In this document: positions 49-47,900 of the stretch, piece after piece
Layout: each line of letters begins with the position of its first letter
Position numbering within the stretch: the first letter of the stretch is position 1
Source of the DNA: Amoebophrya sp. A120
Taxonomy: Eukaryota; Protista; Dinoflagellata
Length of the DNA stretch: 64,000 nucleotides
Assembly (NCBI GenBank): GCA_905178155.1
Contig: CAJINV010000006.1
Coordinates: forward strand, 4,030,130 to 4,094,129
Direction: 5' to 3'
Made by a program: the position numbers and the translations under genes
Notes under the pieces: model-generated
Database searches by the model: none
Told to the model about the DNA's origin: nothing
The model's input: the letters and a program-made list of their open reading frames with translations, nothing else

Positions 49-3000
49 ATCGTACTGACTATCATATTCCCCATCGTCTTCTGCAACCGAGCTCAGCTGG
101 GAGCCCTTCTATAACGCGCTCAGGTGTAGTTACAATCTCAAACGTTACGAATAGAATCTGGAATTTGTGTTGCAAAATGTGCAACATCTGGCCAACTCCC
201 ACAGGAGCGCGCATGACAAGTTTCGGAGCTCCAAACCACATGAGAATCTGGCGAAATTTGTATTGCGAAAACCCCAAGTCTCTGTACGGTACTCATGCTG
301 TTTATGCAAGACAAATTTCAGATTCTATTGTAAAACGTTTGAGATTGTAACGTCTGAGCAAGCCATACCTTCTGCGACCCCTTTTTCCTCTTTGAAGCCC
401 TGGTGCCCGTCGTTGCGCTAGACGCCGTGCTCGACCGGACACTGCTCATCATCTCCTGAGAGCCATCTTCCGTGCCGTCGTAGGATTGCTCGGTCTCTCC
501 GGAAGTCAGCACCGTCCCCCGGGACATCGAGCTCCTCCGGGAGCTCCGGCTCTTCCGGCCCTTTATGTATGCTGTGCAAAAGTATCGCACTCGTAGTAAT
601 TGCAATCATGCATCACAAAACTTTTTCTTAAGGTAAATCAGCATGAGAAACTCCTTTTGTCATGCTGCGAAAATTTGTAATGCGATTTCTACTAGTACGA
701 TGCTTTTGCAATGCATATCATCTCCTCGCCGGCGAATTCCGATTTCCTGCCCTTTTTCCCTTTGCCCTTCATGGTCTCCCGTTTCTTTAAGATCGGCCGC
801 AAATCCGGATTTTCTTCCCGGAACTTCCGCAGTCGTTCCTCGGATTCCAGCGCCTTTTCCTGCACCGCTTTTCTCATCAGTGAGAGTTGCCGGTACATGC
901 GCCAGGTTTTTTGAATCGTGATGGCCGCCCCGTTATGCATTGCAAAAGTATCGTACTAGTAGAAATTGCAATACAAATTTCCTTAGCATGAGAAATGGCA
1001 TTTGTCATGCGGATTTGCCTTAGCAAAAAGATTTGTAATGCAAGACTTGCATTCATACGAGTACGATAGTTTTGCACACGATACCCGTTCTGGTCGTTTT
1101 GCCGCATGGTCCTTCGTGCCCGCTTCTATCAAATGCAAAAATGTCTGGGTCTGGAAGGTTGGAGCTTGTGATGCTAACTTTGGACTCTACAAAAATCTGT
1201 ATTGCATGATCAGCAACAGGAGTCTAGTTTGTGCTACGCGGGGAGGGCATTTGTCATGCGGAATAGGCATCAGGAGGCTTTCTAAAAATCTGTGATGCTA
1301 GGTCATGCATTACAGACATCCTGGGTCATGCAAAATATGCATGACAAACCCGGAAACATTCCAGACCCAGACATTTTTGCATTTCATAGCTTCATCTCGT
1401 GAATGATGATCGCGGTGATCAACCCGACCGGCGCGCCTAGGAACCCCGTATGAACGTGCGCAATTCCCCCTCGTTCTCATTTCTCATGCAAAATCCAAAT
1501 CCAGTTGTTCCCTTGGATCAGTATTATGCATGACAAATGCTGGAAGCTGCCCAAACACAGCACTACAATCCGTGCATAAACTTGTCATGCACAGCATGCA
1601 CGTGCGCTGGTGTTTGTATTGCTGTTCATGCTATACAAATGAGGGGGAAGGGGAGGGGGAGGGGGAGCTATGTGCACTCTCATACCCCGTCATGAAAATC
1701 CACATCACAAAGTGGATCAACCTGGCCAGCAAGCAGTACTCGACGAGCGGGTAGTATCCAGAAAAAAAAGCGTGTAAGTGTAACTTTCTTTGAGGAACAG
1801 CATCACAAATTTGCTCTACATGACAGAGAAAACCTGTCATGCGTGGTTTGTAAGGGAAAACACACAGGAAAAGAGGACTTCATGGCTGTCTGGCATGACA
1901 GGCGTAACTCTGTTGCATCTTCTGCAAGACAAATTTACACTTACACAGTTTTTTTCTCGCGATAGGTAGTCCCCGGTGGAGTGAATCATCATGAACTGCA
2001 ACGACGCGACGAAGGAGTAGTATCGGGATCTTAAAGACGATTCCTCTTCTTCCGCTTCCGGAGCTAAATCCACCGCGTCATACTCACAGAGACGGTATCA
2101 ACTGCAAATTATATGTCTGGGTCTGCAAGCGTGGAGCGTTAGTTTGTCATGCACATTTTGCATGACCCATGATGTTTGTGATGCATGCCCTAGCATCGCA
2201 GGTTTTTCACGGCCTTCTTGATGCCTATCCCGCATGAGAAATGCCGTCTCCGCATAGCAACAACTGGAGTCCTCTTGCTCTTCATGCTATACAAATTTTT
2301 GTAGTATCCAAAGTTAGCATCACAAGTTGCAATCTTCCAGGAGACCCAGACAGATTTGCAATGCATAGACGGATGAAGTAGGTGAAGATGAGGAGAAAAC
2401 AAATGAACCCGTAGAAAATGCACCACAGCTCGGTGCCGTATTTCGTGAAGATTCTCAAAAGAATCCGCAGGGAGGGGGAAAACCGATCGATGACGCAGAT
2501 GATGAACATCCGGGCCGCGACGGCGAAGGCCGCAATATCCTCAATCCCCTTCCGCGGATCGTTGTCTGAAAAAGTGATGTAGAGGTTTCGCGAATAGACC
2601 CGCATAATGGACGTCGTCGCCGCGGCGATCAGGAACACCCCGTGCCCGAAACCGGCTAGGGTTCGGCAGTACCAGAGATTGGCCGCGGAAAACGTGGCGA
2701 GAAGGAAGTCCACGAGGAGCAAGAGAAGGACGATCAAATCCAGCCACTTCATGAACCGGGCTAGCAACTGACTGGGCTCGAACCCCATCAGCTCCTCGAT
2801 ATCGTCGACGTAATCGACATCGTAGAATTGCAGAAACGAAAACCATATCCAATGCAAATACGTCTGGGTCTGGAAACTTGTGATGCCAAAATGTGCATGA
2901 CTGAAACGCTTTCGAATGCAGCCAAGCATGACAAGTTCTTGCAACGCGGTCTCAGGCGTAGCGCGCATGACAAACTGCGTTTTTGCATCACAAAGAACAC

Positions 3001-6000: not shown

Positions 6001-9000
6001 TGATAGCTGCGTCATGATTGCTACCTCCAATGCAAACCCGCAGTTGTGTTCCTGCTTCAAGGGCAACACCAGCCCGATCTCGTGCGCGGATTGGGAGATG
6101 TGGGTTTTCAATTGCTCCACCATGCGAAACCGGTCGAGGTATTCCACGTGGTCTAGATCGAACGCCATGGCAACCGTGTATTGTGGCGGGGCAGCGGGAC
6201 CCGCAGCTCCGGCGCCATTTGCCGCCTATGAAGTGCAAAAGTATCGTACTCGTATGAATGCATGACAAATTCCCTCAGCGTGAGAAATAAAATTTGTATT
6301 GCGGATTTACCTTGAGAAAAAAAATTGTAATGCATGACTGCAATGACTACGAGTACGATATTTTTGCACAGGATACCGCCTGTTCCGCGGCGAACTCTTG
6401 TTCAATCGCCGCTTCTATCAAATGCAAACATGTCTGGGAGTCTGGAAACTTGTAATGCTAGAAGTGAATGATATGCGCACTTCAATACGCAGCCAAGCAT
6501 GACAAGTCTTTAAGCTGCTACGTGTTTCGTTTTCCGCATGGCAAACTGCGTCTTTGCATGACACGCAAGAGGCCCTTCTCCTGCTCATGCATCACAGATC
6601 TAAGAGTTCTGCCACACAAGCATAACAAACTTGCACTCTTCCAGGCCCAGAAATATTTGCTGTGCATAGCTTCCGCGACATCCTCATCCGTTGGTGCTGC
6701 AGCTGCTTTTTTCTCCTTCTTATCTTTTTTGTCCTTCTTGTCCTTTTTGTCTTTCTTATCCGCCCTACTCTCCACCCGGGAAGACAATCCCATCGCCTCT
6801 GCGGTTTCCAATAACGTCTGGAGGAACGAGGAAGAACTTAGCGGCTCGGCCGCTGCACCAGCAGTTCCCCCCTTCGCGCCGCCAAACGGTTTTTCGTACT
6901 TAAACGCGTTTATCACTAGGTCCACATCTTCGGACCTTTGCTTCGGCAAATGTTTCGAGGTCAATCCCACCATTTCGCAGGTCTGCCGGGCGTTCCAATG
7001 CGTGATGTAGCAGGCGTCATCCGTGACGGGGAGAGGGAGGTAGACATCGGAGGAAGACCACAGCCCTGCACCGGAAAGCTCCTCGGGCTTCGTGACTTCG
7101 AAGTCGCCGATGTCATCGTCTGCGTCGCCCCAGTACCTTTTGATTATATGGTGAAAAATTTGTCATGCGGAGATGCGAAATAGAATCGGATAAAACTTGT
7201 CATGCGCATCGACTACGAGTATCACAGTACAAACTCTACCTAGGATCCTCCTCATCGTCGTCGTCCAAATTGTGGTCTGCATGCTCCACGTGGTGCTCGT
7301 CTACGTGGTGAAAATCCGGCTGCTCCCGGATCGTCAGCCGTATGCTGAGCAAAAACGTCCCCATCCCAGAGTCAAGTTGGCAACTCAGCAAAAGAAATCC
7401 AGAAGTTTTGGGGACGACGCATGACAAGTTTCTCTCTGTACTGTAGTACAGGCGGGTAGCAGGCACAGCCGCATAGCAAAGCCATTCTCCTATTCTTCTC
7501 ACAGCATTACAAATTCCAAAACACGACTGGAAATGCCTGTCATGCGGGCGCGTATTCCAAATGTTGCTGTAAATGTAATTGCCAATCTGCATGACAACTC
7601 TGGTATGGGGACGTTTTTACTCAGGATAAGCCGCATCTGCTTGTTATCCCGCAACTGGTATGAATTGCAAAAGCACTATCGTACTAGTAGGAATTGCATT
7701 ACAACTTTCCTTAGCATGAGAAATGGGATTTGTAATGCTGATTGACCTTAGGAAAAAGATTTGTAAATGCATAGCTGCAATTACTACGAGTACGATCCTT
7801 TTTTACTAGATAACTGGCTGTTCTCGCGCGCGCAGACCATAAACCGATCCTCGCCGTGGGAGAATTTTTCGATCATGGCGCGGTTCATGAACGCGTGGTT
7901 GGTAGGGATGTCTAACACCCGGAAAAACTTCGTGACGTACTGCTCCCCGACCGCGTCCGCTATTGTGAGGAAAAATCCCGCCTCCCCATATTGAAAGCGC
8001 ATTTTTCTGAAAATCTGTGATGCAGATTTGTAGTCACAAATCCGGTCTGTCTTGCATGAAGGCAAATCCAGAGACTCCGCCGTATTACGCAGGCGGTTTG
8101 TAATGCTGTTATGCCTACACCGTCGACGTTTTGAATGCTAGGGGCCTACGCCAAAACCTCGCGCCTCAGGCTTGGCATATGCCTGCAGTCCTCTACTGCA
8201 AGACAAATCTGATTTGTATACTGAGATCCAGCATCAGAAACTTCGTTTTGATATGTGGAGGGGGGATCTTTCCTCTTGATATCCGCCCAGGATATTTCCG
8301 ATCCGTATCGATGCTGGTACACCGCTGCGTCGTAGGCGCCGCGGAAGTATGCATTGCAAATATGCCTGGGTCTGGAAACTTGTGATGCAAGTCAGGGAAC
8401 ATTGCGCACATTGTGATGCACTACCGAGCATGACAAATCTGTCCGTGGTTCTGAGTTGCGTAATCCGCATGAGAAAGTGCGTCTTTGCATGACAGGCAAG
8501 AGGAGCTCTTTGCGGCCACGCAATACAGAGCGCGGAGTCATACCAGACTAGCATGACAAATCTCACAATCTCGAAGGCCCAGACATCATATTTGCAGTAG
8601 ATAGAAAGCGGTACTTGACGTTTTTGTGCAAGCGAACCGCGCCCGTTTCTTCGTCGATCTCCATCATCTTGTATCAACTGCAAAAGTGTGTGATTCTGGA
8701 AGAATGCCAGACTTGTCATGCACGTTTTCCATGACCCACGAGCTCTGGTATGTAGGACATACCATGACAGATTCTGTGAGAGTTCTATCATGCCTATCCT
8801 ACATGAGAAATTGCCTCGCGATTAGGTCAAAAGTGGACAGCTTTTGGTAATCATGCAACACAGACTTTTACATGATTCAGATTTAGCATGACAAGTTGCT
8901 TTGTTCCAGACCCAGACATTTTTGCATTTGATATCTTGTCGCCGGCGTCTTCCCCAGTGGGTGTCGTCGACTTCACCGGAGTCAGTGCCCAGAACATCGT

Positions 9001-12000
9001 ATCCACAGCAAACCTACCGTATAATAGACTGTGTACTGGCGTTATTTCTGCATGACAAAACTTTTCCCCAATAGTCACGCAGCATGACAAAAGTACGTAG
9101 TTCAGATTGGCAAAGTTAGTTGTGATGCATTCTGTCCATTGATAATACGGTAAACTTGTCTTGCATACATGGCCATCTGGTTGAACTCATTTTGGTAGAC
9201 GGAGTCCTGGTCTCCCATCCCGATAGCGATGAATTTTTTGTCGCGGTAAAAATTCTTGGGCGGATCACCAACCTCGTAGGGAAAGTCAGATTTGATTTCT
9301 TCCGGTGGGGTTTTTTTCAAATCCCGCGTCATTTTCCGCGGCGTGTGTAACGCTTTCGCGTCCTTCGCGGCCATTTCCTCGGCTTCTCTCGTGCTGTTCA
9401 CGTCCACAATGAGCTTTCTCTCCGTGCCCTCAAAGTACTCTGCGGTCGTCCCCACCTGGATGAGAGACAGCTCGTGCTGCAGCTCCGGCACCATCAGAAT
9501 CGCGGTGTACCCGTGGCAGGTGTAAACAGTCGTGATCGCGATAGAGAGGAAAACCAAGATCCCGACGAAAATGGAGTAGAGTCGGCCGTACTCCGTGTTA
9601 GTCGTCCACATGAATTCGTACCAGCCGCTTCCAAGGGGAGTTTTGTCGGAGCGTTCCGGTAACAATTCTTCAGCTAACTCCTTGTCCTGCAACATTTTCT
9701 CGTGCTTCGCGTACCACTCGTCTTCTTCCTCCTCCTGGGTTTTCTTGCTCTTCTTCCCGCTCTTCAACATGGAGGAAGCGAACCCGGAAGTGTACGCTGA
9801 AGTCGCGCCGGTTTGCTGTGACGTGCGTAAACTAGACCGGTACAACTCGCTATCCATGCCGCTGGAGCCCGGTTCTTGGGAGTCGTAGGACTGAAGCGCA
9901 CTCCCCTCCGGGTAATTGCCTGCTCCTGGACCGAAGGAAGCGCTGCTGTCCGGGTACGCTCCGTCTTCGTCGTAGTTCTGACTGTCGTACCCCTCGTAAT
10001 TGCTGGCCTTGTGCTTTCCTTCCTTCTGGTGCTTATCTTTCGACGCCGGAATTATTTTCCGTTTCATCCAAGTCTTCACATCTTCTTTGTCTTTCCGCTT
10101 GTTCGTAGAAGTTTTTTTTGCACCCGATGAAATTTTAGACGACGACGCGGTTTTATTCTGCTTCTTGTGGTCGCCCTCGGAGTAGTAGAGCTGTTGCCCG
10201 TACTATCGCAAGAAAAAACTGTTTCACTGTGAACTTATGATGCATAGAACGGAACGCAAATGCGTTTGTCCTGCTACACATGCAAGACATTGGATTTTTA
10301 GCTGTGTTTTCCCTTAGGAAGCACGCATGCCAAGTTTTCTTTGTCATGTGTAACAAACTTGTGGTGCAGATCTTGCAAAATCGTCACAGCGAAACAGTTT
10401 TTTCGTGGGATACGTACTCCGACATCTGCCCGTCGGATTGTCCGTATCCCCCGGCACTGTAGCCCGCGTCCGAGGCACCGTATCCCTCCTCATCGTTGTA
10501 TTCCTCCCCATTCTCTTCATTTGCGTCGTACTCTTCGTCGTATTCCCCAGAAGCGCCTACTCCGCTCTCCTCATTTTTCTCCGTCTCGTCGCTCGAGTCT
10601 TCTATCCTATTTGAAAACATCCCCACCCCATAGCTGTCATGCAGATTTGCATCTACAGAAAAATCTGTAATGCACATCCGCAGGAGAGCAATTTGTAGCC
10701 GTGTTCCGGGAAGATTTGTAATGCTGTAAACAGGATGAGCAGGCGTCTTTGTGATGCTGCTGTCCTTGCTAAACAGCACTACACTACAGATGGAAACTTG
10801 TCATGCGTAACTCCCAAAACTCGAAGATTTGTGTTGCAGATTTATCAACTTGACTATGTATGGTGTGGGGACGTTTTTACTCAGGATATCTTCGTCATCA
10901 TCGTCATCGTCGTCGTCGTCGTCGTCCGAGCTCGACATCTCGTCCGCGAAGTAGGCTTATCCACTGCAAATATGTCTGGGTCTGGAAGGTGGATGCAAAC
11001 TTGTTATGCTAACTCTGAATCGTGCAAAAATCTGTGTTGCATGAACCGCAAAAGTTACCCAGTTCTTGCCACAAGATTCAAGTTTCTCATGCGGCTTTTG
11101 CAAAGAACTTTGTGATGCAGCTTCTCGGTGCATTTCTGACCATCTTTGTGATCCACGAGATGCATGACAAACTTTGCTCTCTGTCTTCCAGAGGACCTCG
11201 ACATATTTGCAATTCATAAGGCTTGTTGCATGTAGGATTGGTAAGCGGAGGCGAACAGTCCCGCTGGCAAGGCAAAGATTGCTCCGGCGTATAAATACAG
11301 AATACAGTGAAACGCCCGGCTCATGCCCTGGCCGGAGAAATCATCCCAGGGGGCCTCGCCCGTCAGCGTTAACCCCGTGACCCACATCGCCTTCTATCCT
11401 GTGGAAAAACGTCCCCACGCCAATGCAAATGCGCCATGACAGGAACATTTGTCATGCGCATCTCCATGAGAGGCATTATTTATCTCCAATCGTAATATTT
11501 TGGACTTTGTAATGCTGTAACCAGGATGAGAAGGCGGCTTTCTCATGCGGCTGCCCTTGATGCTAACCAGAACTACCCTGCTGGTGGAAAAAACTTGTCA
11601 TGCGAAACAACCAAAGTTTGTCGATTTGTCTAGCAGATTTCCCATCTTGACTAACGAGTGGGGACGTTTTTCCTCACAATACCTTCCCCGGCGACCCCAT
11701 CCATTCCAAGCGCATCTCGTCGTTGGGGTTTTATCCAGGAAAAAAACTGTCTGTGTAAGTGTAACTCTGTAGGGAAAATAGCATCACAAATTCGCTTTGC
11801 ATTGCAGGGAAAACCTGTCATGCGCAGCCAGTACGTGAAAACACCTGTGAAAGTAACCTATGACGCAGACCCAGCATGACAAGCGTATAACAGTTTTGGA
11901 CTTTCTGCATCACAAACTTACACTCACATACTTTTTTTCTTGCGTAGGTTTCGAATCTCCATCAGGGACCAAAACGCCGCGGCGATCAGCAGAATAGAGG

Positions 12001-15000
12001 TGCTCCACACGACGAAGCACTCGTACAGGTGGTAGTAGGCGCCCGACATGAGAAAATAAATCTTCCGGAACACCCCGATCCTCCGTTCCAACACGAGAAT
12101 GCGGAATACCACAGCCCCGTAGCAAATCACCAAGTAGTCCTGGGCGTAATCCGGCCCGGGGAGGGTTTTGTGCTCACCGTGCAAGAATTGGTCCTGGTTG
12201 CCCCGCCCATACTGCAAAAACATGCCGAACATGATCGCAGAGGGAAGCCAGAACAACAACCGGCGCAACCCGTCCATGGTGAAGATAAACATCGGCGGCT
12301 TCCACTTTGGGTCCATCTCTGGGGCGCCGATGGGGTCGATCTCCAAATCATGATCCTCGCGTCTCCTGAGTAAAAACGTCGCCACCCCAGAGTTGTCATG
12401 CAGATTTGCAGTCACACGCAGATTTGTAATCCGCATCCCCATGAGAGGCATTTCCAATCGTGTTCTGGAATTTGGGATGCTGTAAACAGGATGGGCAGAT
12501 GGATTTGTGATATGGTTGTCCTTGCTAGAATGCACTACACTACGGAGTGCAACTTGTCATGCGCGGCTCCCAAAACTTCTGGATTTGTGTTGCTAAGTTC
12601 CCAACTTGACTCTGGGGTGGGGACGTTTTCACATATGATAACGCGGTAACGGCGTTTCAAGGCGACAATCGGGATCATGTGCTTGTTGTTTTCCACCACC
12701 CGCAGGCAGTAGTGCATGAAGAAGAGCAGCGTGGCGATGATTTCAAAGATCAAACAGGACTTCAACCGTCGGCCGTATTCCTCCACCAGGAAATTTTCGT
12801 GGCAGTTTTCCTTGCAGAACGCGTTCTTGATGGCCCAGTAGTAGCTCTGCGACCGCGGGTATGAAAGAAAAAAACTGTGTTTCTAGTGTACGTGTCTTCG
12901 AGTGACAGCATGACAAACTTCCTCCGCATGACAGAGAAAGTTTGTCATGCCCAGCCACGGCACGTGAAAACACGCACGAGAGGAAAACTTTATGGGTGTT
13001 CGGCATGACAAGTGTATACTATTTTTCATTTTCTGCATCACAGACTCACACTATACGCAGTTTTTTCCTTGCGTAGGGGGGTTCGGTCCGCGGAGAGGAA
13101 ATACGCATGGTCGTTGTGGTAGATCGGTGCTAATTCTCCCCCGTGTCGGTCCAGGTTTTGGTGGCTGAAAATCTTCGAGGTCACTGCCCGGTCGAATAAC
13201 ATCATGACAACGATGGACACGATTCCCGTGAATTCCAAAAACCGGTTGACCCAGGGGGACATCACCAGCTTGGAAGTGAGCTCCTTGTAAATGCCGTACT
13301 TCACCCTGCCCTTCCGGTCATCCAAGCTGTTTTTCGTCCGCGATTTCCGGGAGACCAGGTTGCCATCCGCGTCGTAAACCTCTTCAATTTCGTGGGTTTC
13401 CACCTCCGTGGAAGAACCAGAGGAATTACTGCTGCTGCTCCCTTCGCCTCCCTTGGAAGAGCTGTTGCCGTCCATCGAAAGGAGTTTCTTCTCCTTCACT
13501 CGGTTGTCTTCCTGACCCGCCTTCACCGCGTGCCAAACTTCGTCATCGTGCATCAGGTTGTCAATCTCGTGTTCAAACGTATCCAGTGCAAATATCTCTG
13601 GGTCTGGAATGTCGGAACTTGTGATGCTGGGCTTACATTCGTGCGCAATCTGTGTTGCATGACCACCAAAAGTCGCAGCGTCTTTTGTTTAGTACACAAA
13701 AACGCAGTTGTTCTTTCTCATGCGGACTGCGTATGAGAAAGCGTTCCACATGCTTGTCATGCTTGGCTGCATTCGGAACAACGTTCTCATCATCCACAGT
13801 TCAGCATCACAAATTTCCAGACTCAGACATATTTGCAATGCATAAAAAGCGTCCGAGCGCAACTCCCCGGACTCCGTTTCCGTCTCCTGCATGACCTCCT
13901 CCAACGCGCCCCCGAGCAGACCACAGGGAAACGCAATCGTGAGGGCGCCAAGGGTTGCCGCGTAGAAAATCGCAAACCGGGAGAGATTCGATTGGTGTTC
14001 TTCGCCGAGGGGGAATTCGCCGTTGAAGTTGAGAAAAGCCTCGTACATGGAGCTTGCGATCGAACTGTACTTGCCCTGGTGCCAGGACAAAATGGAGGAC
14101 TGCTTCGGGGACCCGTCTTCCGCCTCAATCACCCACTGCTCCTCTGGCCCGTACAGGTAGTACAGACACCCCTCCGTGACCCAAACCGAAATTAACAGCA
14201 TCAGGCCAATTTTCAGTAGTGTTCTCACGGACTGGAAGATGATGATGAAGATCTTGAATCCAGAGTTCGCCCGGTAGATGAGGAGATCGTTGGCCAGGTC
14301 GAAGACTTTGAAAATGATGAAGAGAAAGGACTCGTCCACGGCGGTTAACCTCACGTCTATCGAAGGAAAAAAGTGTTACAGTTACACATCATTTGTAGTG
14401 AATTCAGCATCACAAGTTTTCTCTGCATGATGTAATGCAAAGATCATAAGGAAAAACACACATGAAGCGAGACTCGCAAGCATTTTGCGCATGACAGAGG
14501 TCGTCTGTCTTGCATGTTTTGCAAGACAATGTGTACCTGTAACACTTTTTTCTTTGCATAGCGTCGGTGTACTCCGGCATGTTGGTTGCGATGACAAAGT
14601 CAAACGTGAGGTAGGCAATGATCGCCACGTCGACTTTGACGAGCAAGTCTTTCACGAAGTAGACCCATCCGGACGTGAAGCGATCTGGGTACACCCTGGA
14701 GGCTATCAACTGCAAATATGTCTGGGTCTGGAAACTTGTGATGCAAACCAGGGACTACTGGGCGCACTGTCATACGTGGCCAAGCATGACAAGTTTTTGA
14801 GGTGCTATGTGCAGCGTATTCCGCATGGCATGGCAGACTGCGCTTTTGCATGACAGACAAAACGATCTTTTTGCACCTACGCATGACAGAGGTCCCAGTC
14901 ATGTCAGACACGCATGACAAATTTGGCAATCTTCCAGACCCAGACATATTTGCAATGCATAGAGGCATAGTTGAACCGCATCGCCGTGATGAGAAACAGC

Positions 15001-18000
15001 ACCAGCAGGTAGAAAAACTTCATCAGGCGCATATTGTGAGAAAAAATCCCCCCTCCGCGTATCAAGATGGATATTTGTGATGCTGACATGCGGCCACAAA
15101 TCAGATTTGTCTTGCACAAAGTGCTTGGTGGTATTTTCGAACTACCCTGTTCGGGTATGCAGAAGGCTAGCAATTAGGCATGGCAAACAGGTTTTCAGTA
15201 GTCGAAAGCGCACGAGAGACTGGCTGTAGAGTGAGCCACTAGGCTCCTATCACCCGATAGGCAAGACAAAGGTGATTTGCGGTCACAAATCAGCATCACA
15301 AATTGCCATTTTGATATGTTGGGGAGGGGGAATTTTTCACTTTGATAGTGCACGGAAAATTTGAAATCCGCGAGGACGTGGATGTTGTGGTTAATCCGCT
15401 TTTCGTTGTACAACCGTTTCAAGTAGTGGATGTTGGACGGAATGAACTTTTTTTTGTCCACCAACTCCGGCAGCGAGTCCTCGTTTTCCGGGTTGCCGAC
15501 AATCTTGTCCTCGTCGCGGAGCGGTTCGCCATTCAAAGCGTGAATCAGTAAATGTTCTTTGTATTTCGCGGATTCCGCCCGGACGTCCCCGGCGATCGAG
15601 GCCTCAGACAAGGGGTCGACGTCCTCGGACGCGTCGCGGCCGTCCACCGTGTCGGCCAGTTTGATCCCGCCCTCTATGAAATGCAAAAGCATCGTACTTC
15701 TAGTATGAATTGCATTACAAATTGACTTAGCATTACAAATGATATTTGTAATGCTGTTTTACCTTGGGAAAGAGATTTGTCAAGCATAACAGCAATTACT
15801 ACCAGTACGATACTTTTGCAGAGCATACCTTCAACTTTGTATTGATAGGAATCATGGATCTCCTGTTCAAACGGGTCCCCGGTGATTGATTTTTCCGGCA
15901 TCTCTTCACTGTCCAAGTGCTCCTCATCGTCCTCCTCGGTGGTAAAAAGTTGCTGCTTGTGCTTCCGGATCTTCTTTCGCTGTTTTGTGCTGGTCTCGAC
16001 TTCTAGAAAAGAGGAGGACGCTTCGTTTTGCAAGGGGAGGAACGACTGCTCGTTCACTTGCAACAATTCCTGGTCGACACTGGGGTCGAAGTCCTCATCC
16101 AACTCCTGCTGCATCTGGATCTGCTCTGGCGTGATGGATTGCTGTCCCGACGGAGAAATAAAATTCCTTTTTTTTGCCTTTTTCTGTGCATTTTTCGCGG
16201 AACTGGAAGATTTTTTCGCCTTAACACCCATCCGCTCCTTCCTCTTCTGCGCTATCTTCGAACGAATACGGTTATCAAATGCAAAAATGTCTGGGTCTGG
16301 AAGAATTCCTGTTTGTCATGCTTGTCTGGCATGACTCTTAAATCTGTCATGCACGTTAGCCAAGAGCTCCGTTTTTCTGTGATGCAGAAGCACAGTTTGT
16401 CATGCAGAATAGGCAACACCTAGGAGCTCAGAAATTTGTCATGCTGAGCCAGCATTTGTAGCCTCATCATGAGACGCCACCCAGCATCACAAGTTTCCAG
16501 ACCCAGACATTTTTCCTTTTGATAACGGTTGGAGTGGAACCATTGCTGCAGGTCCTCATGCGATTTTACTACTCGGTGCTTGTTCCTTCTGGTATGGCGG
16601 AGTCGTTTTGACAATTTTTTTTCCTTTGTCATTTTATGTCGTTGATCGAGCTGGATACTGCTGGAGGCGGAGGCGGAAGAAGATGCTGACGACGACGAAT
16701 CCAACGAGCCAATCTCCCCCGTTCGTTTCCACACGAGCAATTCCTGGCTCGTTTCGTAATCAAAATCTTCCCCGGAAATAACGCAGTACCTTGGTTCCGT
16801 TCTTGGTTGGTCCAGGGCCGACTCTCCCGCCGGGAACATGCCCTCGTCCGCGGGGTTGGCCATGTGAAAGGTTGAAGCGAACACTACGGAGTCATCCCCC
16901 AAGGCCTGCAAAATCGTGTTGAAGTCCCCCACTCCGAGCCCATAGGGTGCCTTTTCGATCAAGTCGTGGATGTAACTGATGTATGAATTGCAAAAGTATC
17001 GCACTCGTCGTATAAATGCATTACAAATTTCCTGAGCATGGGAAATAAAATTTGTAATGCGGATTTGCCTCAAGGAAAAGATTTGTAATGCATGACTGCA
17101 ATTACGCTTTTGCAGTGCATATGATGATCGTTTCGTCACAGTGCATTTTCACCTCCCCAGGATCGTCCGGAATGATCCGCACAATCTTCGCACCGTTATG
17201 GATTGCAAATATATCTGGGTGCTGGTCTGGGAGACATCGAGATTTGTCATGCTAATGTGGCATGACTCTGGGATCTGTATTGCGTGGCAAGAACCAAGAG
17301 CTCCGCTTCCCTGTCATGCAAACACGCAGTTTCTCATGCGCAATACGCAACACAGAACCGTGAAGAAACTTGTCATGCTTGGCGGCGCAACATAATTACA
17401 GTGTATTCTATTTTATTATTCATATTCAGCGACTTGCATCACAAGTTTCCAGACCTACAGACCGACGATATTTGCCATGCATACCCGTGCTCCGACTGCA
17501 ATGCGTGGTCATCGGGGGAGCACTTCAACTTCTCCGGGATTCTGGTCAGTTGCAGCGGTTTTCCATAGTCGGAGAGGTTGCCGTCGTCGGGGACAAACCC
17601 GACGAGACAGATCCGCCTCTTCCCGTTATTCATCACAAAGTTGTGCAGCGCGTAGTCCAGCGCCGGTGCACCACCCTTGACGTGCGGAATCACGTTGCGA
17701 ATCTGCCCGCGGATCTTCCCCGGGTGGAGCTTGTTGTGATGTTCTTGTTCGTGGTGATGTGTCTTTCTGTTTTTCTTGTGGTGCTCGTGTACCATCTCGT
17801 GGGTGACCTTCTGCTGCCGTTTCCGCTGCATGAACGTGGTCGACGTTGATTCGAATAACCGTTCGAGGAAGGAACTAGCGCCCTGTTGTTCCTTCTTGTC
17901 TTTCTTCTTCTTTTTTTTCTTCTTCTCCCCTCCTGCATTGTTGTTTTCTTCTCCCATCACAGCCGCCGTGACGTCTACAGCTCCGGGGTCTGCGTCGACC

Positions 18001-20949: not shown

Positions 20950-21700
20950 CGTCGCCGACGAAGAAATCAAAGTTATTTTCACCAATTATTTGAATTGCTG
21001 TTGATGTAACTATCACATTGTCACGTAAACAACGTAATGTTGTTTCAAAAACAGTTATTATAGTTTTGGATGTGATGTGGTAGGTAGTTCGTTGTAACCA
21101 AAAGTAGTCTACTACTACTGATCAACCTCCTCTCTACCACTACGTTGTGGGGGTGAAATTTGGAATTTGGTTCATGTAGTCAAGGAAAAGTGCGTGACGA
21201 TTCATGTGAATCGCTCCCACGATTTAAGATTGTGGAGTTTCAGATGCGAGCGATTTGTACGAGATAACTCCTTGTGTTTTTACACTCCACGACAAGCAGA
21301 ACCCCTCACATGCTTGCACGACTTTTTCTGGAATTCATCCTTTTGCTTTTTCGTTGCATTTTCCTCTTGTTTTTCTCTCATCAAGTCCTCTCCCAATGAA
21401 ACAGAAATAAAAACTCACGACAGGTTTACATTTTTGCAACAACGATAAGCACAAGCTCAAGCAAGCGACTGAGTATGATACTAGTAAGTACGTCTCTCCA
21501 GCCTAGTTAAGTACGACGGAAGACTGAACACGAGGCAGGTGAAGCAAGTGTGTAGGTTGTAGAAGCTCTAGTCATGCGAGATCGAGATTTTCGCTGTCTT
21601 GGTTGAGATTAGAACCTGATTTTGTGCTCAGTAGTACTACTTTCGTGACGGATTCAGAACTTGACATTCGCGAAGATGCGTTGTACAATAGATCTGTCTG
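20055..21700. repeat. Segmental duplication copy 1 (upstream region and N-terminal coding part of the channel gene)
   Basis: Near-identical to 23570-24510; the second copy lacks roughly 20210-20900. Confidence 0.85.
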
Positions 21701-28159: not shown

Positions 28160-30709
28160 TCACATGAAGTCATCTTCTTCCGCAGCAGTCACCGCGGCGA
28201 CCTCGGATGTGGGTTTATTACTCTGGTGTTTCGAGGATTTTTTTTGCGGTTTGTAGTTGTATTCGTACTGCTGGTCTTTGTGATACTCGTACTGATGTTC
28301 CTCCTTCTTCTTCTTCGGTTCCTTCGCCGGAACTGGCTTCGGAGCAGGAGCAAGCTTTTTCATTTGCGCAGCGGTAGTACGGGCACCACGACGGTTCTCC
28401 TCGTTTTCCCCCTTTTCCTCCTCCACCATCACTAAAGCCGTGAACGCGTTCACCAGATCCGTGCTCGTTTTTTTCTCCTCGACCATGTTGTTTTTCCTCT
28501 CCTCCTTCTCCTTCGTAACCTCCTCGACGGACCGATATCGCACGATTTGTTTTTTCTCCTTCTCCAGCAATCTAATCTTCGTGTCCAAATTCCGCATCTC
28601 CAGCACAACCCGCTGAATTTCCGCCCCGGCTTCGTTGTACTTATCCTCTTGCTTCCGCAACTGCTCTATGAAATGCAAAAATGTCTGGGTCTGGAAGAAT
28701 GCAAGTTTGTCATGCTTGTCTGGCACGACTCGGGAATCTGTGTTGCATAGGCACGAAAGAGCCCTCTTATCTGTCATGCGAAAAGGCAGTTTGCCATGCG
28801 GAATACGTAAGACATGGCAGCCACAAAATTTGTCATGCATAGCTGCGTATTGCGGCGCGTCTATCATTCACTTTTAGCATTACAAGTTTCCAGACCCAGA
28901 CATTTTTGCATTTGATATGCTCCCGGTTCTGCTCGCCCCTTTGCAGCATGTAGGCTTTTTTGCACGAGTCCACGTTTTTCTTCAAATCCTGCTGTTTTTT
29001 CTCGTTCAGCTGCTTCTCTTTGAACAGTTGCTGCTTCTCCTCGAGGATTTGCTTGATTTCACTATTCACCCTAGCTTCTTGCTCGATAATGTAAAACAGC
29101 GGGTCTTTTTGCAATCGAGATTGCCATATCAACTGCAAACACGTCTGGGTCCTCTGGAAGGTGCCGAGATCATTGTAATGCAGTTTTTCCAAGCACCACC
29201 AAATCTGGAATGCAGGGCCTAGCATCACAGGATCTGTCGCCCCTTGGTCGTGATGCCTGTTCTGCATGAGAAACGCCCTCACAGCATGGCCAGATACTTA
29301 TGTGCACCTTTTGCAAGTCACGCAACACAGATTTTTGTACGATCAGCAACATGCATCACAAGTTCACATCCTTCCAGACATCCAGGGATATTTGCAATGC
29401 ATATGCCACTTCGTGTCATCCTTGGGGATCAGCATGTACTCCCAGTTTTTCACGTAGGACATGAAACCTGATTTTTGTATAATGGTTTGATGAAGCTTTT
29501 CGCATGACAAGGCAAGACCGTAGCTGCATCAAAATCTATTCATGCTATGGAAGTAGATGAAAACACTAGCATAGCTGTATCCGTATCACGATTTTTTTGC
29601 ATGACAACATTGTTCACTTCAAAAAATACCCTTCTCCTCCGCCAGCGCCTCGTGTAAGCTGTACAAATCCGTGACTTCCCCATCGAACATCGGGAACTTC
29701 AAAACTTTCCCGTTCGTCAACTTCGCATACTGTTCCTCGTACTTCGACACGGGCATTTTCACTTCCTTCGTCCCCTTCTGCTCGGCCCAGTCGATCACCA
29801 TTTCCCGAGTATGCATTGCAAAAGTATCGCTCTCGTAGTGAGTAATTGCATTTATGCATTACAAATCTCTTTCTTAGGCTGGCTCCGCATGACAAATTCC
29901 CTTTGTCATGCTGAGCTAATTTGTATTGCAATACTGCGACTACGATACTTTTGCAATTCATACCGAGTTGTGATCAACAACTGTCGCCACTCCAATTCCG
30001 CGATCCACGCCGCGGGAGCTTGCTGCTGTTGATCTTGGAGAGAGGTGGAAGAATCCGCGTTCTCCTGATTGGCGTAGAATTGTTCTTTCGTGTTTGTTTG
30101 CATCAGTTCCGGAGAAGAAGCGCTGTCTTCTGGAGAAGATTTTGATGATTGCAGCTCCCCGTTGGCACCATCGACAGCAATTCCATTGTTTTGCGCAGAC
30201 CTCGGGCTGGTGGCATCGTTGGAACTCGTGTAGTTGCCGCCGGTTTTTTTGCTGACCACATCCTGGCCTTGCTCGTTTATTTCCGCGCCACAGACCACAA
30301 GGTCTCTATCACGACCCTGTTTGTTATTTTCCTCACCAGACGTCAGCTCCGCGCTCTTCGGCTTGGAGTTGTTTGCTGCAGCGCCGATTAGCGTGGTGAT
30401 TTTCGTGACTTTCTCCTTCTTTTCCTTTTTCTCCTTCTTGCTTTTCGATTTTTTTGTAGATGATGTGTCGTGGTCCGCAGATGGTTGTACAATTGTTCCG
30501 CCAGGAGCGCCTGATACAACTGCACCAATCCCACCACCTAGCGGATGTTGACCAAAGCCCGGAACAAGAGGATGAACCGCAGCTCCACCGTGCGCTTTGC
30601 TTTTGTAATTCAGGCTATCCGCGTCGCAATTTCGATCGTAAAACTCGTAGTCGTTGTTCTGCGCCCGGACGTGCGCGCGCCACGTGGCCTCGTCAGGCTG
30701 CACCGACAT
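28160..30709 (-). CDS. Hypothetical coiled-coil protein, possible small HTH-type (LOTUS/ARID-like) domain
   Basis: Frame restored across elements 29810-29962, 29127-29403, 28667-28917 and GT-AG intron 29468-29629; E/K/Q-rich C-terminal half. Domain call is weak and the 3' end is uncertain. Confidence 0.55.
28667..28917. mobile_element. Introner family A
   Basis: TSD TGCTC. Confidence 0.9.
29127..29403. mobile_element. Introner family A
   Basis: TSD TGCCA. Confidence 0.9.
29810..29962. mobile_element. Introner family B
   Basis: TSD CCGAG. Confidence 0.9.
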
Positions 30710-31831: not shown

Positions 31832-34004
31832 TCAGATGCGCCACATCACCGTGCTTCCCAGAATCTCCTGACTAGTCTATGCTGTGCAAAAACGTCCCCA
31901 CCCCAGAGTTGTAATGTAGATTCACAATCACAGGAATGCTTGTAATGCGCCTCCCCATGAGAGACGCTATCTGTCGCGCTTTGGCATTTGTGATGCTGCA
32001 AGCCGGATAAGCAGATGGATTTGTAATGCGGCTGTCCTTGTGAACCTGCACTACACTACAGAGAGAAGCTTGTCATGCGTGACTCCCAAAAGTTATGGGT
32101 TTGTGTTGCAAAATCCCCATCTTGACTCTAGGGTGGGGAGGTTTTTCCTCAGGATATAGTCCGATTGTGGATCAGCCCCCTTGTCGGCACGTTCGTCTGG
32201 TTCACCACGTGCCTTTTGCCCGTATCAAATACAAAAATGTCTGGGTCTGGAAGGTTCTGAAACCTGTCATGCATGTTTTGCATGGCCCAGGATGTCTGTA
32301 ATACACGACCCAGCATCACAGATTTTTAGAGGGCTTCCCGATGTTCATGTTGCCTACTCCGCATGACAAACGCCCTCCCCACGTAGCACAAACTAGACTC
32401 CTCTTCCTGGTCACGCAATACAGATTTTTTTAGAGTCCAAATTTAGCATCACAAGTTCCAACCTTCCAGACCCAGACGCTTTTGCATTTGATAGCCCGCT
32501 CGGTTTCGCAAGTACCAGGGGACATAAAACTCCTTCCCAACACCCGCTTTCCGCTGGCGGTCGGCCTGATAGAAGAAGGTTGTCATGTACATAGCAACAT
32601 CATCATCACGTTGAATTGCGACACATTCGTCCTTTGCATCACAAGCTCCGAGAGGACTTTCTTATCAAGAAACAAGCACGAAAACTTCTAGACTATACGA
32701 ATGCATCCGGCACTGGCGTATCCTTCGCACTGACGTTCTTAAACCGAAAGGTCCACGGCGGTCGCTCCGTAAGGGGATCCACACTCGCAGACCTTTTCCA
32801 CTTGGTCGCCGCTCTGGCCGTGTTCCGGGACAGAGGTCTCGGTTTGTAGTGGATTTTTGTCATCGAACTGTTCCACGCGATTTCGACACTCGGCGTCGTC
32901 GCCCGCTTTGACGCGAGATTTGTACTTGTCAATTCCGGTGTCTTCGCGTACAGATTGACGCCCTCGAGCCGCGCTTTTTGGAAGAAGTTGGAGGAAGAAG
33001 CGCTTTGGTTGTTCATCGTGTGATTTTGTTCTAGTGTCGCGACGGACCCGTCTAGCGTTCGATTTTCGTCGTCTGTGAAGAAGGAGAGGTTATCATGCAG
33101 GTCGGTCATGGTGTTGTTTAACGACAATGATTATCAAATGCAAAAATGTCTGGGTCTGGAAACTTGTGATGCTGGGTGGCGTATCATGATGAGGCCACAA
33201 GTGCTGGCCCAGCATGACAAGTTTCTAAGCTTCTAGGTGTTGCCTATTCTGCATGGCAAACTGCGTTCCTGCATGACAGAAAAATGGAGCGCTTGGGTAA
33301 CGTGCATGACAGATTTAAGAGTCATGCCAGACAAGCATGACAAATATGCATTCTTCCAGACCCAGACATTTTTACAGTTGATAATGATGCTCCTCCCAGT
33401 CCCATGTTGGCAGATGAATTTTTCAGACTACTCATGCCCGACGGCCTGCTGTGTTGATTGTTGCCCTGTTTCGTTGAGTTGTGAGGCTTCTTATTCTGTT
33501 GGAAAGAAAGATTGAAGTCCACATTCCGGCCAGATTTATTTCCGCTCTGTCCCGGGCCACTGGGGGCGGTGGCCACTCGTGCTGGAGAATTGTTGTTGTA
33601 TGCATTGCAAATATGTCTGGGTCTGGAAGGTTGGAACTTGTCATGCTAAATCTGAATCATATAAAATTTGTGTTGCGTGATTACCACGACAAGCTGTCCA
33701 CTTGTGACCTAATCGAGACGCCGTTTCTCATGCAGAATAGGCATCGTAGAACTATCACAGACTCTGTCATGCTATGTCCTACATAACAGACCTCATGGGT
33801 CATGGAAAACCTGCATGACAAGTCTGGCATTCTTCCAGACCCAGACGTATTTGCTGCAGTTGATATGTTGGCCGCGCGGAGACTACTGCTGTTATTCGTA
33901 CCCCCACCCATCGTCAGGAGCGATGAGGTAGAGGACGCTGGGCGCTGCATTTTTTGCGGATGTAGAGCTGTGGCTTGAACCTCGTTGGGACCAAACCAAT
34001 CCAC
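31832..34004 (-). CDS. Hypothetical low-complexity S/N/T-rich protein (5' start uncertain)
   Basis: Frame restored across elements 33599-33865, 33132-33383, 32223-32493, 31878-32156 and GT-AG intron 32566-32698; stop TGA at 31832-31834. Confidence 0.55.
31878..32156. mobile_element. Introner family C
   Basis: TSD TAGTC. Confidence 0.9.
32223..32493. mobile_element. Introner family A
   Basis: TSD GCCCG. Confidence 0.9.
33132..33383. mobile_element. Introner family A
   Basis: TSD ATGAT. Confidence 0.9.
33599..33865. mobile_element. Introner family A
   Basis: TSD TGTTG. Confidence 0.9.
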
Positions 34005-35295: not shown

Positions 35296-36089
35296 TTAAC
35301 TTCCACCGCCCATTCTTTTTCTCATGCTGGGCGTTGGCGGCACGTCGGCTGTGAGAACCAACTGCCGCTGCGCCTGGGGTCCGGCGCTCGCATCGTTGGT
35401 TCCCCTTTCCGCGTGCGAGGCAGAATCCGCACCATGCGCGGTGGAACTGCTGGCTCCCGGTGTGGACGGTGGGGTTTGCGTCGGTGTGGACGGTGGGGTT
35501 TGCGGTGGGGTCACGTAGATCTGGAACGGGACTCTTGCTTCCTTCTTCCCTTGCTTTGCATGTTCCTCCGCCTGTTCGTTCCCGGTCTTGACCACCAGCT
35601 CCGCCTGTTCGTTCCCGGTCTTTTGCAAAGTCGCCGACACCTGCGGGAAAGCGAATGGAGGCTTTCGTTCGGAATAGGCAAGATGGGCACGTTGACGCCA
35701 TTCATTTTTATTTCGAATAGTCCTTGAACATATGGATATCAATCAGTATCACAAAAAGGTAATTGGAAATTAATAAAATATCAATACCGATCCATCCCAG
35801 AGCATCGCTGCGCTCACGTCGGTCGCCTCATCCCCATCCTCGGGGGGGGGGTCATTCCAGCGCGCAAGTTCTGGTTGTATGCGCGAGCGAAAAGCCAACC
35901 TGCGTTTTGAAGGATGTTTCCTGAAGCAGAGTCAACAGGATTTTCACGAGGACATATATCAAATAACTCATTATCATAATTTCTAGTACTGTAATGGTCC
36001 TCGCACGGGCCAACCAGCGGAAGGATCAGCTTGAGGGAGCGCTCGGCGCGCTTATCACAACCGGATTTCGATTTCTTGCTGCGCGGCAT
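35296..36089 (-). CDS. Possible hypothetical gene with short tandem peptide repeats
   Basis: ORFs 35814..36089 and 35296..35742 (KTGNEQAE x2, QTPPSTP x2); no recognisable homology and no splice model. Confidence 0.2.
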
Positions 36090-38351: not shown

Positions 38352-42181
<3,830 letters not shown>

Positions 42182-44919: not shown

Positions 44920-47900
44920 ACCTAAAACCCGGGCGCACACTTCACCTCGATCGACAGCAGCTCGTGCTCGTCGTCCACAAGTTTGCGGCTTGGAGGTATG
45001 GATAGAGAATTAGGAAAGTTTGTCATGCGCACTGGAATATTAGCGTGGAGAAAATTTCACGTTTTGCTGCTCGTCGCAGAGAACGACAAGAAGCAGCAGC
45101 TGCTGCATGACAACGCTCATACCAGCACAAGCACCCACTGCATGACAAAAAACCGCCCTTTTCCTCTATCCATACCCTTGTATGCGAACACGTATTCATT
45201 CTTCGGGCAGGAACAACCCACCCACTCTTCACTGGTGGCTGGGTCGTATCGCCCCCGGCTGATCGCCTCCTCCAGCGAAAAAAGTTTCACGGCTTCTTGG
45301 GGCACCATTAGCGTGTCGCAGGCTGTTGAGAGATTTGTTTTTTATCACGTTTCGTACAACCAGCATGAGAAAACCATTTTCCATACAGGAATCAGCATGA
45401 CAAACTGGCAATATTAATATTTTCAATACTTATCCATCCCCCGTACTTGTAATCCGCGTACTTTAAGTATCAAATGCAAAAATGTCTGGGTCTGGAACTT
45501 GTGATGCTGCATTTGGATGTCTAAAAGATTTGTGTTGCATGAGCAGCAAAGGGAGTGCAGTTTTGGCTACGGGAAGAGGGCATTTGTCATGCGGAATAGG
45601 TATCAAGAATCCCTCAAAAAACCTGTGATGCTAGGGCATGCATCACAGACATCATGGCCCATGCAAAATGTGCATGACAAGCTCCGACTCTTCCAGACCC
45701 AGACATTTTTGCAATCCATATCAAGTCGTGTTGTTGCTTGTACTCTGGAAACCCTGCTTTGCATATGCACTGCAAAAGTCAAAGTGTTGTAATTGCGGTC
45801 CTGCATTACAAATCTTTTTCTCAAAGGTAGAACCGCATTACAAATTCCACTTCGCATGCCGAGCAAATTTGTGATGCGATTCCTACTAGTACGACTAACT
45901 TTTGCAATGCATAGTGCAGTACAGTTCGAGCACCGGGTGTAAACTGATCATCGACACAAGCCCTATCAAATGCAAAAGTGTCTGGGTCTGGAAACTTGTG
46001 ATGCTGGGTGGCGTCTCATGATAAGGCCACAAATGCTGGCTCAGCATGACAAGTTTCTGAGCTTCTAGGTGTTGCCTATTCTGCCCGACAAACTGCGTTT
46101 CTGCATCACAGAAAAACGGAGCTCTTCGGTAACGTGCATGACAGATTTAAGAGTCATGCCAGACAAGCATGACAAACATGCATTCTTCCAGACCCAGACA
46201 TTTTTGCACTTGATAAACCCCCGGTCAAAACAGCTTCCGTAGATGGACCCGTTGTCCAATCTCGTCAATCGCATGGGATACAGCGCAAACGACGTCGGCG
46301 TGAAGTGTGACTGGTCCCGTTATGGTCTTTGCAAATATCGATCTGGGTCTGGGAATTTGTGATGCAAGAGCTGAAAGACAAGAGGATCTGTGATGCATGA
46401 GTACGAGTGGCCACTTTTTGTGTCGTGCTGGAGGCCAGTTTGTCATGCGTTTTCCAAGAACGAATGAATCTGTAACATATTTATATGCCTCTGAAAATTA
46501 TTTCTGATGCCGTTCTGCCGTACAAGCGACCAACCTGCGATGCGAGCTTCAGCAACACAAATTTCTAGACCCAGACATATTTGCCATCCATACCCGCCTC
46601 TGGCACGCGATTTCCCAGTCGGCGGTGGACTTCAACCCTTTCCTTCGGAAGCCGGACACTAGGTACTGCTCGGTCGTTTTCGTCCGGAGGTTTTCCTGTG
46701 TCAAACCGCATTTCACTATCCTATGTAAAAGCGTCCCCACCCCGGAGTTGTCATGCGAATCTCCATGGTAAAAATGTTTCTATTGCGGAGCCCCATGAGA
46801 GGCACTTTGTGCTCGTGCTTCGAAATTTGTCACGCTCCCATCGGCATGATGTGCCAGATCTGCGATGCTTCTGAACTAGCTAAACAGGATTACACTACGA
46901 GGCCAAACTTGTCATGCAGAACTCTCAAAACTTGGAACTTTGTCTTGCAGATTTCCCAACTTGACTATGGGGTGGGGATGTTTTTACATATGATATTAAC
47001 CACGGAGGCGCTGTCCTCTACTGATACCCAGCCATCCTCCGCCTCGAAGTCGCCGTCGCCAATCCCGATGAACCGCGGCCAGCGCATCATATGTAAAAAC
47101 GTCCCCAACTTCCCAAAGTCAAGTTGGGAACTCAGCAACACAAATCCAGAAGTTTTGGAAGCCACGCATGACAAAATGGAGTCCGCAGTGTAGTAGTGCA
47201 TGTTAGTAAGGACATCCGCATCACAAATCCATTTGCTTATCCTGTTTGCAGAATTACAAATTCCAAAACTACACGATTGGAAATGCCTGTCATGCGGAAG
47301 CGCATTACAAGTGTTCGTGTCATTGCAAATGTGCATGACAACTCTGGGGTTGTGGGGACGTTTTTACACGGGATACAGCGCAGCGAATCTTCGTTCTGCT
47401 CGTCTTCCGCAGCTTGGGCTCGTTCGTCATATCCTGTGCAAAAGCATCGTACTCGTTTTAATTGCATTTATGCATTACAAATCTCTTTCTTAAGCTGTAT
47501 CCGAATTACAAATTCCATTTGTCATGCTGAGCTAATTTGTAATGCAGTACTACGAGTACGATACTTTTGCAATTCATACGTCACTCAAGTCGTTGAAGGA
47601 AATCGTGGATTCTCGGCCTTATCAAATGCAAAAGCATCGTGCTCGTATAAATGCAGGTCTTGCATTACAAATTTCTTTGTCAAGGCAAATCAGCATTACA
47701 AATTTTATTTCTCATGCTGAGAAAATTTGTAATGCATTTATATGAGTACGATACTTTTGCAGTTCATAGGCCTGAAGGTCGTATAGAAATTGTACTCATT
47801 TGAGTATCATAGTCACTTTGCACCATGCTCGGCGACATTACAAGACAAAATCAAAAAATAGCAGGTGTAGCTCCAAGAACTCCATAATACGGTAATATGA

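What the first reader, a model, noticed from the sequence alone, without database searches (positions are those of the whole stretch)
109..45429. Canonical introns look like domesticated introners: 9 of 10 donors are G+TAT
Seen: inferred GT-AG donors (minus strand) are GTATGG (368), GTAGAG (7239), GTATGC (9168), GTATTG (19024), GTATTT (29629), GTATAG (32698), GTATTT (39681), GTATAG (40179), GTATTG (41250), GTATTG (45429). GTAT is what an element end (TAT) gives when the TSD ends in G, and these introns have element-like size and mostly retain the internal motif. Inference: elements are cut 1 nt upstream of TAT, and those with a G there can lose TIRs and become ordinary spliceosomal introns, giving a visible non-canonical to canonical continuum.
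Basis: partly seen in the sequence, partly recalled or inferred. Interest (0 to 1): 0.75.

Follow-up and report, generated by a model that had tools for sequence, protein, structure and literature searches.

The report
Parasite's rewired intron code, not domestication
In the marine parasite Amoebophrya A120, jumping-element introns are cut one base before their TAT end and share an internal motif with ordinary introns, but ordinary introns start with their own longer signal, so GTAT is likely the host's splice signal rather than a trace of domesticated elements.

Summary
The window is Amoebophrya sp. A120, whose TAT…ATA introners are published (PMC7789003). All ten donors are present and nine are GTAT. 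Spliced RNA contigs at five mismatched duplications, plus homologous proteins at five sites, put the cut 1 nt before TAT and 4 nt after ATA. The paper's text calls that border variable or unknown. The domestication reading mostly fails. Of the ten donors, 368 is an intact element that happens to be GT-AG, and 9168 is likely an element ending GT…AT. The ten TIR-less GT-AG introns I could model carry A/T at +5 (10 of 10), whereas elements carry G/C there (89 of 90). They show no TIR, TSD or hairpin, are shorter, and G-starting elements are not more decayed. GTAT is therefore likely a host consensus (GTATWG). The new point is that the motif TTTGTCATGC is kept in both intron classes (6 of 10 TIR-less introns) but is almost absent from exons and intergenic DNA. 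That suggests a shared intron-recognition signal. Whether these particular introns are ancient could not be tested.

The parts
106..368 (-). Intact introner (TAT 367 to ATA 110, duplication GAAGG/GAAGG) that is GT-AG in the 1-nt register; donor GTATGG.
   Evidence: (fold z -8.1)
7137..7239 (-). TIR-less GT-AG intron, donor GTAGAG (the one non-GTAT donor), two reverse motifs
   Evidence: ORF closure and stops; motif
8996..9168 (-). Decayed introner (TAT 9167 to ATA 9000, CCATG/CGATG), donor GTATGC, likely ends GT…AT and not at the AG at 9014
   Evidence: AT5 orthologue P0121; RNA piece end fits both acceptors
11391..11682 (-).
   Evidence: net removal fits RNA contig lengths
12856..13076 (-). 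Introner with CCCCC/CCCGC duplication; the RNA contig shows the cut is at most 1 nt upstream of the element start
14354..14561 (-). Introner with GACGC/GACGT duplication; the RNA contig and AT5 valine show the cut is at least 1 nt upstream
17193..17484 (-). Introner with ACGGG/ACGGT duplication; the RNA contig shows the cut is at least 1 nt upstream
18836..19024 (-). TIR-less GT-AG intron, donor GTATTG
29468..29629 (-). TIR-less GT-AG intron, donor GTATTT
32566..32698 (-). TIR-less GT-AG intron, donor GTATAG
35641..35787 (-).
39538..39681 (-). CDPK intron, phase 0, donor GTATTT, two exact motifs
   Evidence: model identical to annotated P0001
39939..40179 (-). CDPK intron, phase 1 at residue 182, donor GTATAG
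41054..41250 (-). CDPK intron, phase 1 at residue 56, donor GTATTG
44993..45175 (-). Old introner with an 11-bp TIR and an erased duplication, spliced GT…TC exactly 4 nt past ATA, passing over an AG 4 nt further on; fixes the register uniquely
   Evidence: homologues P0124-P0126 read YKASR or YRASK
45323..45429 (-). TIR-less GT-AG intron, donor GTATTG, two exact motifs
47772..47925 (-).

Best explanation
A120 introners are removed from one base before their TAT end to four bases past their ATA end, and the GTAT of ordinary introns is likely the host's own donor consensus (GTATWG), which element ends match at +2 to +4, rather than a relic of domesticated elements. Shown: the fixed register, which removes exactly one copy of the 5-bp duplication whatever the end dinucleotides are; a canonical donor that differs from element ends at +5 and +6; and a 10-nt motif confined to introns of both kinds. 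Inferred: one spliceosome handles both classes. It would read U-A-U at +2 to +4 and the internal motif. For elements it would place the 3' cut by distance from the terminal hairpin, so that G at +1 and the final AG are dispensable, while TIR-less introns still need GT, AG and the longer GTATWG. A +4 U preference fits the reported absence of snRNP27. A small minority of elements (2 of 90) are GT-AG by chance and could be domesticated, but they do not account for the TIR-less class.
For: Register: RNA contig piece ends at five mismatched duplications allow only 1 nt in common (two need at least 1, one at most 1, one at most 2, one at most 3). Homologues agree at 14560, 12640, 45913, 46215 and uniquely at 45175. 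All 9 predominant A120 non-canonical end types in Table S4 of PMC7789003 have T as second base. Host consensus: +5 is A/T in 10 of 10 TIR-less introns but G/C in 89 of 90 elements; +6 is G in 8 of 10 vs 13 of 90. No ATA at -7 to -5 and at most 3 of 5 duplication matches; no TIR above shuffles (p 0.06-0.95); fold z -1.8 to +1.2. PMC7789003 section 12 implies that about half of canonical introns share positions with A25, whose elements start TTA; under that figure P(at most 1 of 10 conserved)=0.013. snRNP27 is 'ND' in A120, and its loss goes with +4 U in yeasts (PMC10581693). Motif: 9 exact hits in 1,577 nt of TIR-less introns (shuffle mean 0.3, maximum 3), 273 in 21,629 nt of elements, 1 in 15,552 nt intergenic and 1 in 11,286 nt of exon. 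Keeping 45% of the element density by neutral decay would leave about 92% of bases, so TIRs should still be visible.
Against: The shared motif is also what shared ancestry predicts. The five most decayed elements have family similarity (25-37 bits) overlapping that of TIR-less introns (23-33 bits). 11682 is an intact GT-AG element with the host hexamer GTATTG, and TATTG arms also occur at the 3' end of two other elements, so elements can supply GTATTG. G-starting elements have +6 G more often (8 of 28 vs 5 of 62, p=0.02), though 5' arms show no excess over 3' arms (13 vs 16). The paper finds IR/DR in 15% of A120 canonical introns. n is only 10, from one window; no orthologous intron position was obtained; the 49% figure is my reading of an ambiguous sentence; the snRNP27 link comes from yeasts and A25 lacks the protein too. 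Spliceosomal removal of the elements is not shown.
Confidence: 0.65

Rival explanations
1. Domestication: most TIR-less GTAT introns are old introners that landed in xxAGG sites, lost their TIRs and duplications, and were then remodelled at +5 and +6 while keeping the motif.
For: The register makes G+TAT a real route; 368 and 11682 are such cases, and 368 has weak family similarity (35 bits); shared motif; 15% of A120 canonical introns have IR/DR; decay of introner-like elements into ordinary introns is reported in fungi (PMC3609843).
Against: 0 of 10 keep the element +5 base, ATA, a duplication or a TIR. G-starting elements are no more decayed (TIR score 35.4, n=27, vs 33.7, n=62; imperfect duplications 6 of 27 vs 20 of 62). 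G before TAT is not enriched (27 of 89, p=0.91). Old elements 45175, 61072 and probably 9168 stay in element register despite a nearby AG. Remodelling of +5 and +6 itself requires a host consensus.
Confidence: 0.25
2. Two separate machineries: elements are excised by a hairpin-guided, non-spliceosomal route as proposed for euglenid nonconventional introns, and the match of TAT to the host donor is coincidental.
For: 88 of 90 elements are not GT-AG; 11 of 14 folded elements have z of -4 or lower; U1 was not found in A120; euglenid parallel in PMC11282704.
Against: The register lines TAT up exactly with canonical +2 to +4; the motif is shared with GT-AG introns; the intron -1 position is biased to G (40 of 89) and against A (8 of 89), as in spliceosomal junctions; all but 6 of 89 spliceosomal proteins were found.
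Confidence: 0.1

Closest known systems
Amoebophrya A120 introner elements (Farhat et al. 2021, PMC7789003)
   Same: Same strain; IRs starting TAT, 3-5 nt direct repeats, hairpins, about 250 nt, mostly non-canonical ends; 15% of canonical introns with IR/DR.
   Different: The text and the Fig. 3 legend call the splice position variable or unknown; here it is fixed at -1/+4. The GTATWG vs NTATS contrast and the shared internal motif are not in the text I saw. The Fig. 3 logos were not viewable and may already show GTAT.
TSD-recruiting introners of Symbiodinium, Chrysochromulina and Florenciella (Gozashti et al. 2022, PMC9860276)
   Same: DNA-transposon-like elements whose splice sites lie partly or wholly in the duplication, leaving the mRNA unchanged.
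   Different: Those recruit real GY/AG sites; here both terminal dinucleotides are largely free (only 2 of 90 are GT-AG).
Fritillaria borealis non-canonical introns (PMC13326754; review PMC11282704)
   Same: Transposon-derived, spliceosome-removed non-canonical introns beside a minority of GT-AG introns that sit at conserved positions; reduced U6 m6A.
   Different: There the ends favour AG-AC and AG-AT with a YAY triplet, U1 is present and U2AF is duplicated; here the invariant bases are +2 to +4 and the 3' cut is a fixed 4 nt past the TIR.
+4 U donors of yeasts lacking METTL16/SNRNP27K (Parker et al. 2023, PMC10581693)
   Same: GTAT donors; snRNP27 not detected in A120.
   Different: A120 has A/T at +5 and G at +6 rather than the yeast GT (recalled consensus GTATGT); METTL16 status in A120 is unknown.
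Fungal introner-like elements decaying into regular introns (PMC3609843)
   Different: Those are spliceosomal introns from the start; here the evidence for that path is limited to 2 of 90 elements.

Membership tests
Amoebophrya A120 introner elements (the 90 TAT…ATA elements) | Terminal inverted repeat starting TAT | tested here: met
   (partly by construction of the scan)
Amoebophrya A120 introner elements (the 90 TAT…ATA elements) | 3-5 nt direct repeat at the borders | tested here: met
   5-bp duplication perfect in 63 of 89
Amoebophrya A120 introner elements (the 90 TAT…ATA elements) | Repeated in families | tested here: met
   84 of 89 hit another element at E<1e-5
Amoebophrya A120 introner elements (the 90 TAT…ATA elements) | Removed precisely from mRNA | tested here: met
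   contig coordinates across 18 elements in run X4 match the model; the other 72 not checked with RNA
Domesticated introner (the 10 TIR-less GT-AG introns) | Relic TIR or ATA at -7 to -5 | tested here: not met
   0 of 10
Domesticated introner (the 10 TIR-less GT-AG introns) | Relic target-site duplication | tested here: not met
   1-3 of 5 matches, largely the G and AG|G bases
Domesticated introner (the 10 TIR-less GT-AG introns) | Element-type bases beyond TAT | tested here: not met
   +5 G/C in 0 of 10 vs 89 of 90
Domesticated introner (the 10 TIR-less GT-AG introns) | Similarity to element interiors | tested here: inconclusive
   short hits only, best E 2e-4, overlapping the five most decayed elements; motif shared
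Domesticated introner (the 10 TIR-less GT-AG introns) | Lineage-specific position (absent from A25, AT5, Perkinsus) | not testable with these tools
   no orthologous genomic DNA found
U2-type spliceosomal intron (elements) | Lariat formation and spliceosome dependence | not testable with these tools
   needs lariat sequencing or inhibition

The most novel reading that the evidence does not exclude
Amoebophrya A120 has rewired intron recognition. Its spliceosome defines introns by U-A-U at +2 to +4 plus an internal UUUGUCAUGC signal, and for introners sets the 3' cut by a 4-nt ruler from the terminal hairpin with no need for G at +1 or AG. Ancient host introns have converged on, or donated, the same motif, so host splicing code and transposon ends co-evolved.
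Probability: 0.4. Interest if true: 0.8.

Novelty: new variant of a known kind. Interest (0 to 1): 0.55.

Why it matters
How Amoebophrya splices tens of thousands of non-GT-AG introns with no detected U1 has been open since 2021. A fixed register turns the apparent chaos of end dinucleotides into one rule (N-TAT…ATA-NNNN). It would allow re-annotation of the genome's intron borders and gives testable targets: the +2 to +4 UAU, the 4-nt spacing, the internal motif, and a predicted divergent U1 or protein substitute. It also shows that AG can be ignored at the 3' splice site. The domestication headline itself would matter less, since it has a precedent in fungi and is only weakly supported here.

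Tried and rejected
No whole genome was held, so genome-wide logos and a U1/U6 search were impossible; Rfam found nothing in the window. RNA junctions were seen only for 1-20000 and only as contig pieces; the joint table was swamped by repeats, and no RNA view of 28-48 kb was obtained. The overlap of the two RNA contigs (29 vs 11 nt) leans to the element register at 9168 but is not decisive. The metagenome scan gave 14 CDPK loci; only L014 showed clear introns, none at the three A120 canonical positions, and it is a distant 49%-identity kinase, so it is uninformative. Viral contigs gave nothing. The homologue search with exon 47927-48145 found nothing. 45175 was first counted as canonical and reclassified. 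61072 as an element shifting to a downstream AG was rejected: only the element register keeps the frame. 59557 is unresolved because neither model closes. A branch-point role for the forward motif was rejected since its distance from the 3' end is inconsistent. 11682 as proof of adaptive remodelling was weakened because TATTG arms occur elsewhere. Rows dropped before counting: 4 of 73 candidates and 5 of 89 judged chance pairings; 6 elements were added by eye. Literature searches for the register or the motif found no description; subscription papers such as Roy et al. 2023 are not in the library. Earlier-findings look-ups returned nothing.
Full report
Identity. A CDPK exon matches a protein named Amoebophrya sp. 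A120 at 100% (accession), and my spliced model equals that 475-aa protein exactly. Farhat et al. 2021 (PMC7789003; I saw the abstract, sections 5, 11, 12 and 33, passages, supplement part 3 and supplement search hits, but no figures) describe A120 introners with IRs starting TAT and 3-5 nt direct repeats. They did not find U1 or snRNP27, and they call the splice position relative to the hairpin variable or unknown.

Observation. All ten donors are as stated, nine of them GTAT, against 4.9% GTAT among GT dinucleotides. Two scans, curated by dropping nine chance pairings and adding six elements by eye, give 90 TAT…ATA elements. Removing each element plus one 5-bp duplication yields open frames, including a 3,784-aa gene with 39 elements.

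Register. Run X4, guessed to be RNA by the tool, gives contigs that skip the introns, while X1 runs unspliced across 8912-10230. X4 coordinates match the model across 18 elements. At mismatched duplications the piece ends require a cut at least 1 nt upstream of TAT (17483, 14560), at most 1 nt (13075), at most 2 (15827) and at most 3 (13844). Only 1 nt fits all five. Homologous proteins agree independently: V at 14560 and E at 12640 in the AT5 orthologue, and F at 46215 and K at 45913. At 45175, where the duplication is erased, only the 1-nt register gives the conserved alanine of YKASR, and the intron ends TC although an AG lies 4 nt further on. All nine predominant A120 non-canonical types in Table S4 have T as second base.

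The ten donors re-sorted. 368 is an intact element (GAAGG duplication, fold z -8.1) that is GT-AG in this register. 9168 is a decayed element; the AT5 protein lacks the six residues that the AG acceptor would add, favouring GT…AT, but the RNA piece end fits both. The other eight lack TIRs. I added two more TIR-less introns (47925, supported by a homologue; 35787, weak), and one more GT-AG element (11682). So 2 of 90 elements are GT-AG, 28 start GT and 11 end AG.

Against domestication. The ten TIR-less donors are GTATTG x5, GTATAG x2, GTATTT x2 and GTAGAG. +5 is A/T in all ten but G/C in 89 of 90 elements (p=6e-13; 6e-12 without 35787), and +6 is G in 8 of 10 vs 13 of 90. None has ATA at -7 to -5 or more than 3 of 5 duplication matches, a TIR above shuffles or a hairpin (z -1.8 to +1.2, against -4 or lower for 11 of 14 elements folded). 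They are shorter. Among 89 elements, G before TAT is not enriched and G-starting elements are not more decayed. The paper reports that position-conserved introns are 98.6% canonical and make up 19.4% of A120 introns, and that 24.8% of strain-specific ones are canonical. On my reading about 49% of canonical introns predate the split from A25, whose elements start TTA; the chance that at most one of ten is conserved is then 0.013. Loss of SNRNP27K goes with +4 U in yeasts (PMC10581693, passages), offering a host-side cause, though A25 lacks it too.

For a partial continuum. The five most decayed elements have as little family similarity as the TIR-less introns. 11682 carries GTATTG, the only +5 T among 90 5' arms, but TATTG also occurs in two 3' arms. 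+6 G is commoner in G-starting elements (p=0.02) without arm asymmetry. The paper finds IR/DR in 15% of canonical introns. Fungal elements are reported to decay this way (PMC3609843, passages).

The shared motif. The 10-mer of type TTTGTCATGC occurs exactly in 6 of 10 TIR-less introns (9 hits in 1,577 nt; shuffle mean 0.3, maximum 3 in 200) and 273 times in 21,629 nt of elements. It occurs once in 15,552 nt of intergenic DNA and once in 11,286 nt of exon. Elements carry it symmetrically; TIR-less introns lean to the sense strand with one mismatch allowed (18:6 vs 258:263, p=0.02) but not significantly for exact hits (6:3, p=0.31). Neutral retention at 45% density implies about 92% per-base survival, which should have left TIRs. 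The motif is therefore likely maintained or acquired by selection (inference). Its scarcity between genes does not separate the hypotheses, since almost all elements here sit in coding exons. A full-text search for the motif found only unrelated papers.

Mechanism. Shown: register, donor contrast, motif distribution. Inferred: one spliceosome reading UAU at +2 to +4 and the motif, with the element hairpin acting as a 4-nt ruler for the 3' cut; a residual G bias at intron -1 (40 of 89 G, 8 of 89 A) fits this. Which came first, host signal or element end, cannot be told here. Closest parallels are TSD-recruiting introners (PMC9860276, passages) and Fritillaria (PMC13326754, abstract, section 21 and passages; PMC11282704, passages). 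Other Amoebophrya strains use mainly GT-AG and at least one has U1 (PMC12005148, passages). PMC12130899 and bioRxiv 10.1101/2022.06.08.495308 were seen as passages only and do not address the register.

Limits. One window and ten TIR-less introns; RNA evidence only for 1-20000 and only as contigs; no orthologous intron positions; figure logos unseen and may already show the GTAT consensus.

Verdict. The elements are known and the headline of domestication is mostly not supported (about 25%). The fixed register and the motif shared by both intron classes appear new in the literature I could search and make the splicing mechanism directly testable. Interest 0.55.

Noticed in passing
window 9985 region; protein P0122: A protein from another record appears to read from an element 3' end into this exon at a site where the window has no element, suggesting presence/absence polymorphism and recent mobility.
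   Followed up: no
window 47616-47925: Element 47768 inserted on the acceptor of the GTATTG intron, duplicating its AG; this leaves a 2-nt micro-exon or one merged intron and shows that the canonical intron is older than the insertion.
   Followed up: partly
whole window: Nearly all 90 elements lie in coding exons; the 15.5 kb of intergenic DNA scored holds none (38275 lies just 3' of the CDPK stop).
   Followed up: no
element ends: The first A of the 3' ATA is present in 90 of 90 elements while the last A varies to G in 4, which would keep a U-G pair; partly an effect of how the scan selected ends.
   Followed up: no
window ~40-20949: One gene of about 3,784 aa with 39 elements and several predicted membrane-like segments; it has an AT5 orthologue (P0121). 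Function not examined.
   Followed up: partly
window 20960-21700 and 23740-24500: Duplicated upstream and 5' region shared by two neighbouring genes.
   Followed up: no
window 59350-59557: Decayed element with both ends altered but a perfect duplication; neither splice model closes the frame.
   Followed up: partly
window 8847-8935, run X12: Reads from a 2026 run with the same species label match only this element stretch at 90-95%, not the exons.
   Followed up: no
PMC7789003 Table S4: All nine predominant A25 non-canonical types start TT, hinting at a fixed register in A25 too.
   Followed up: no
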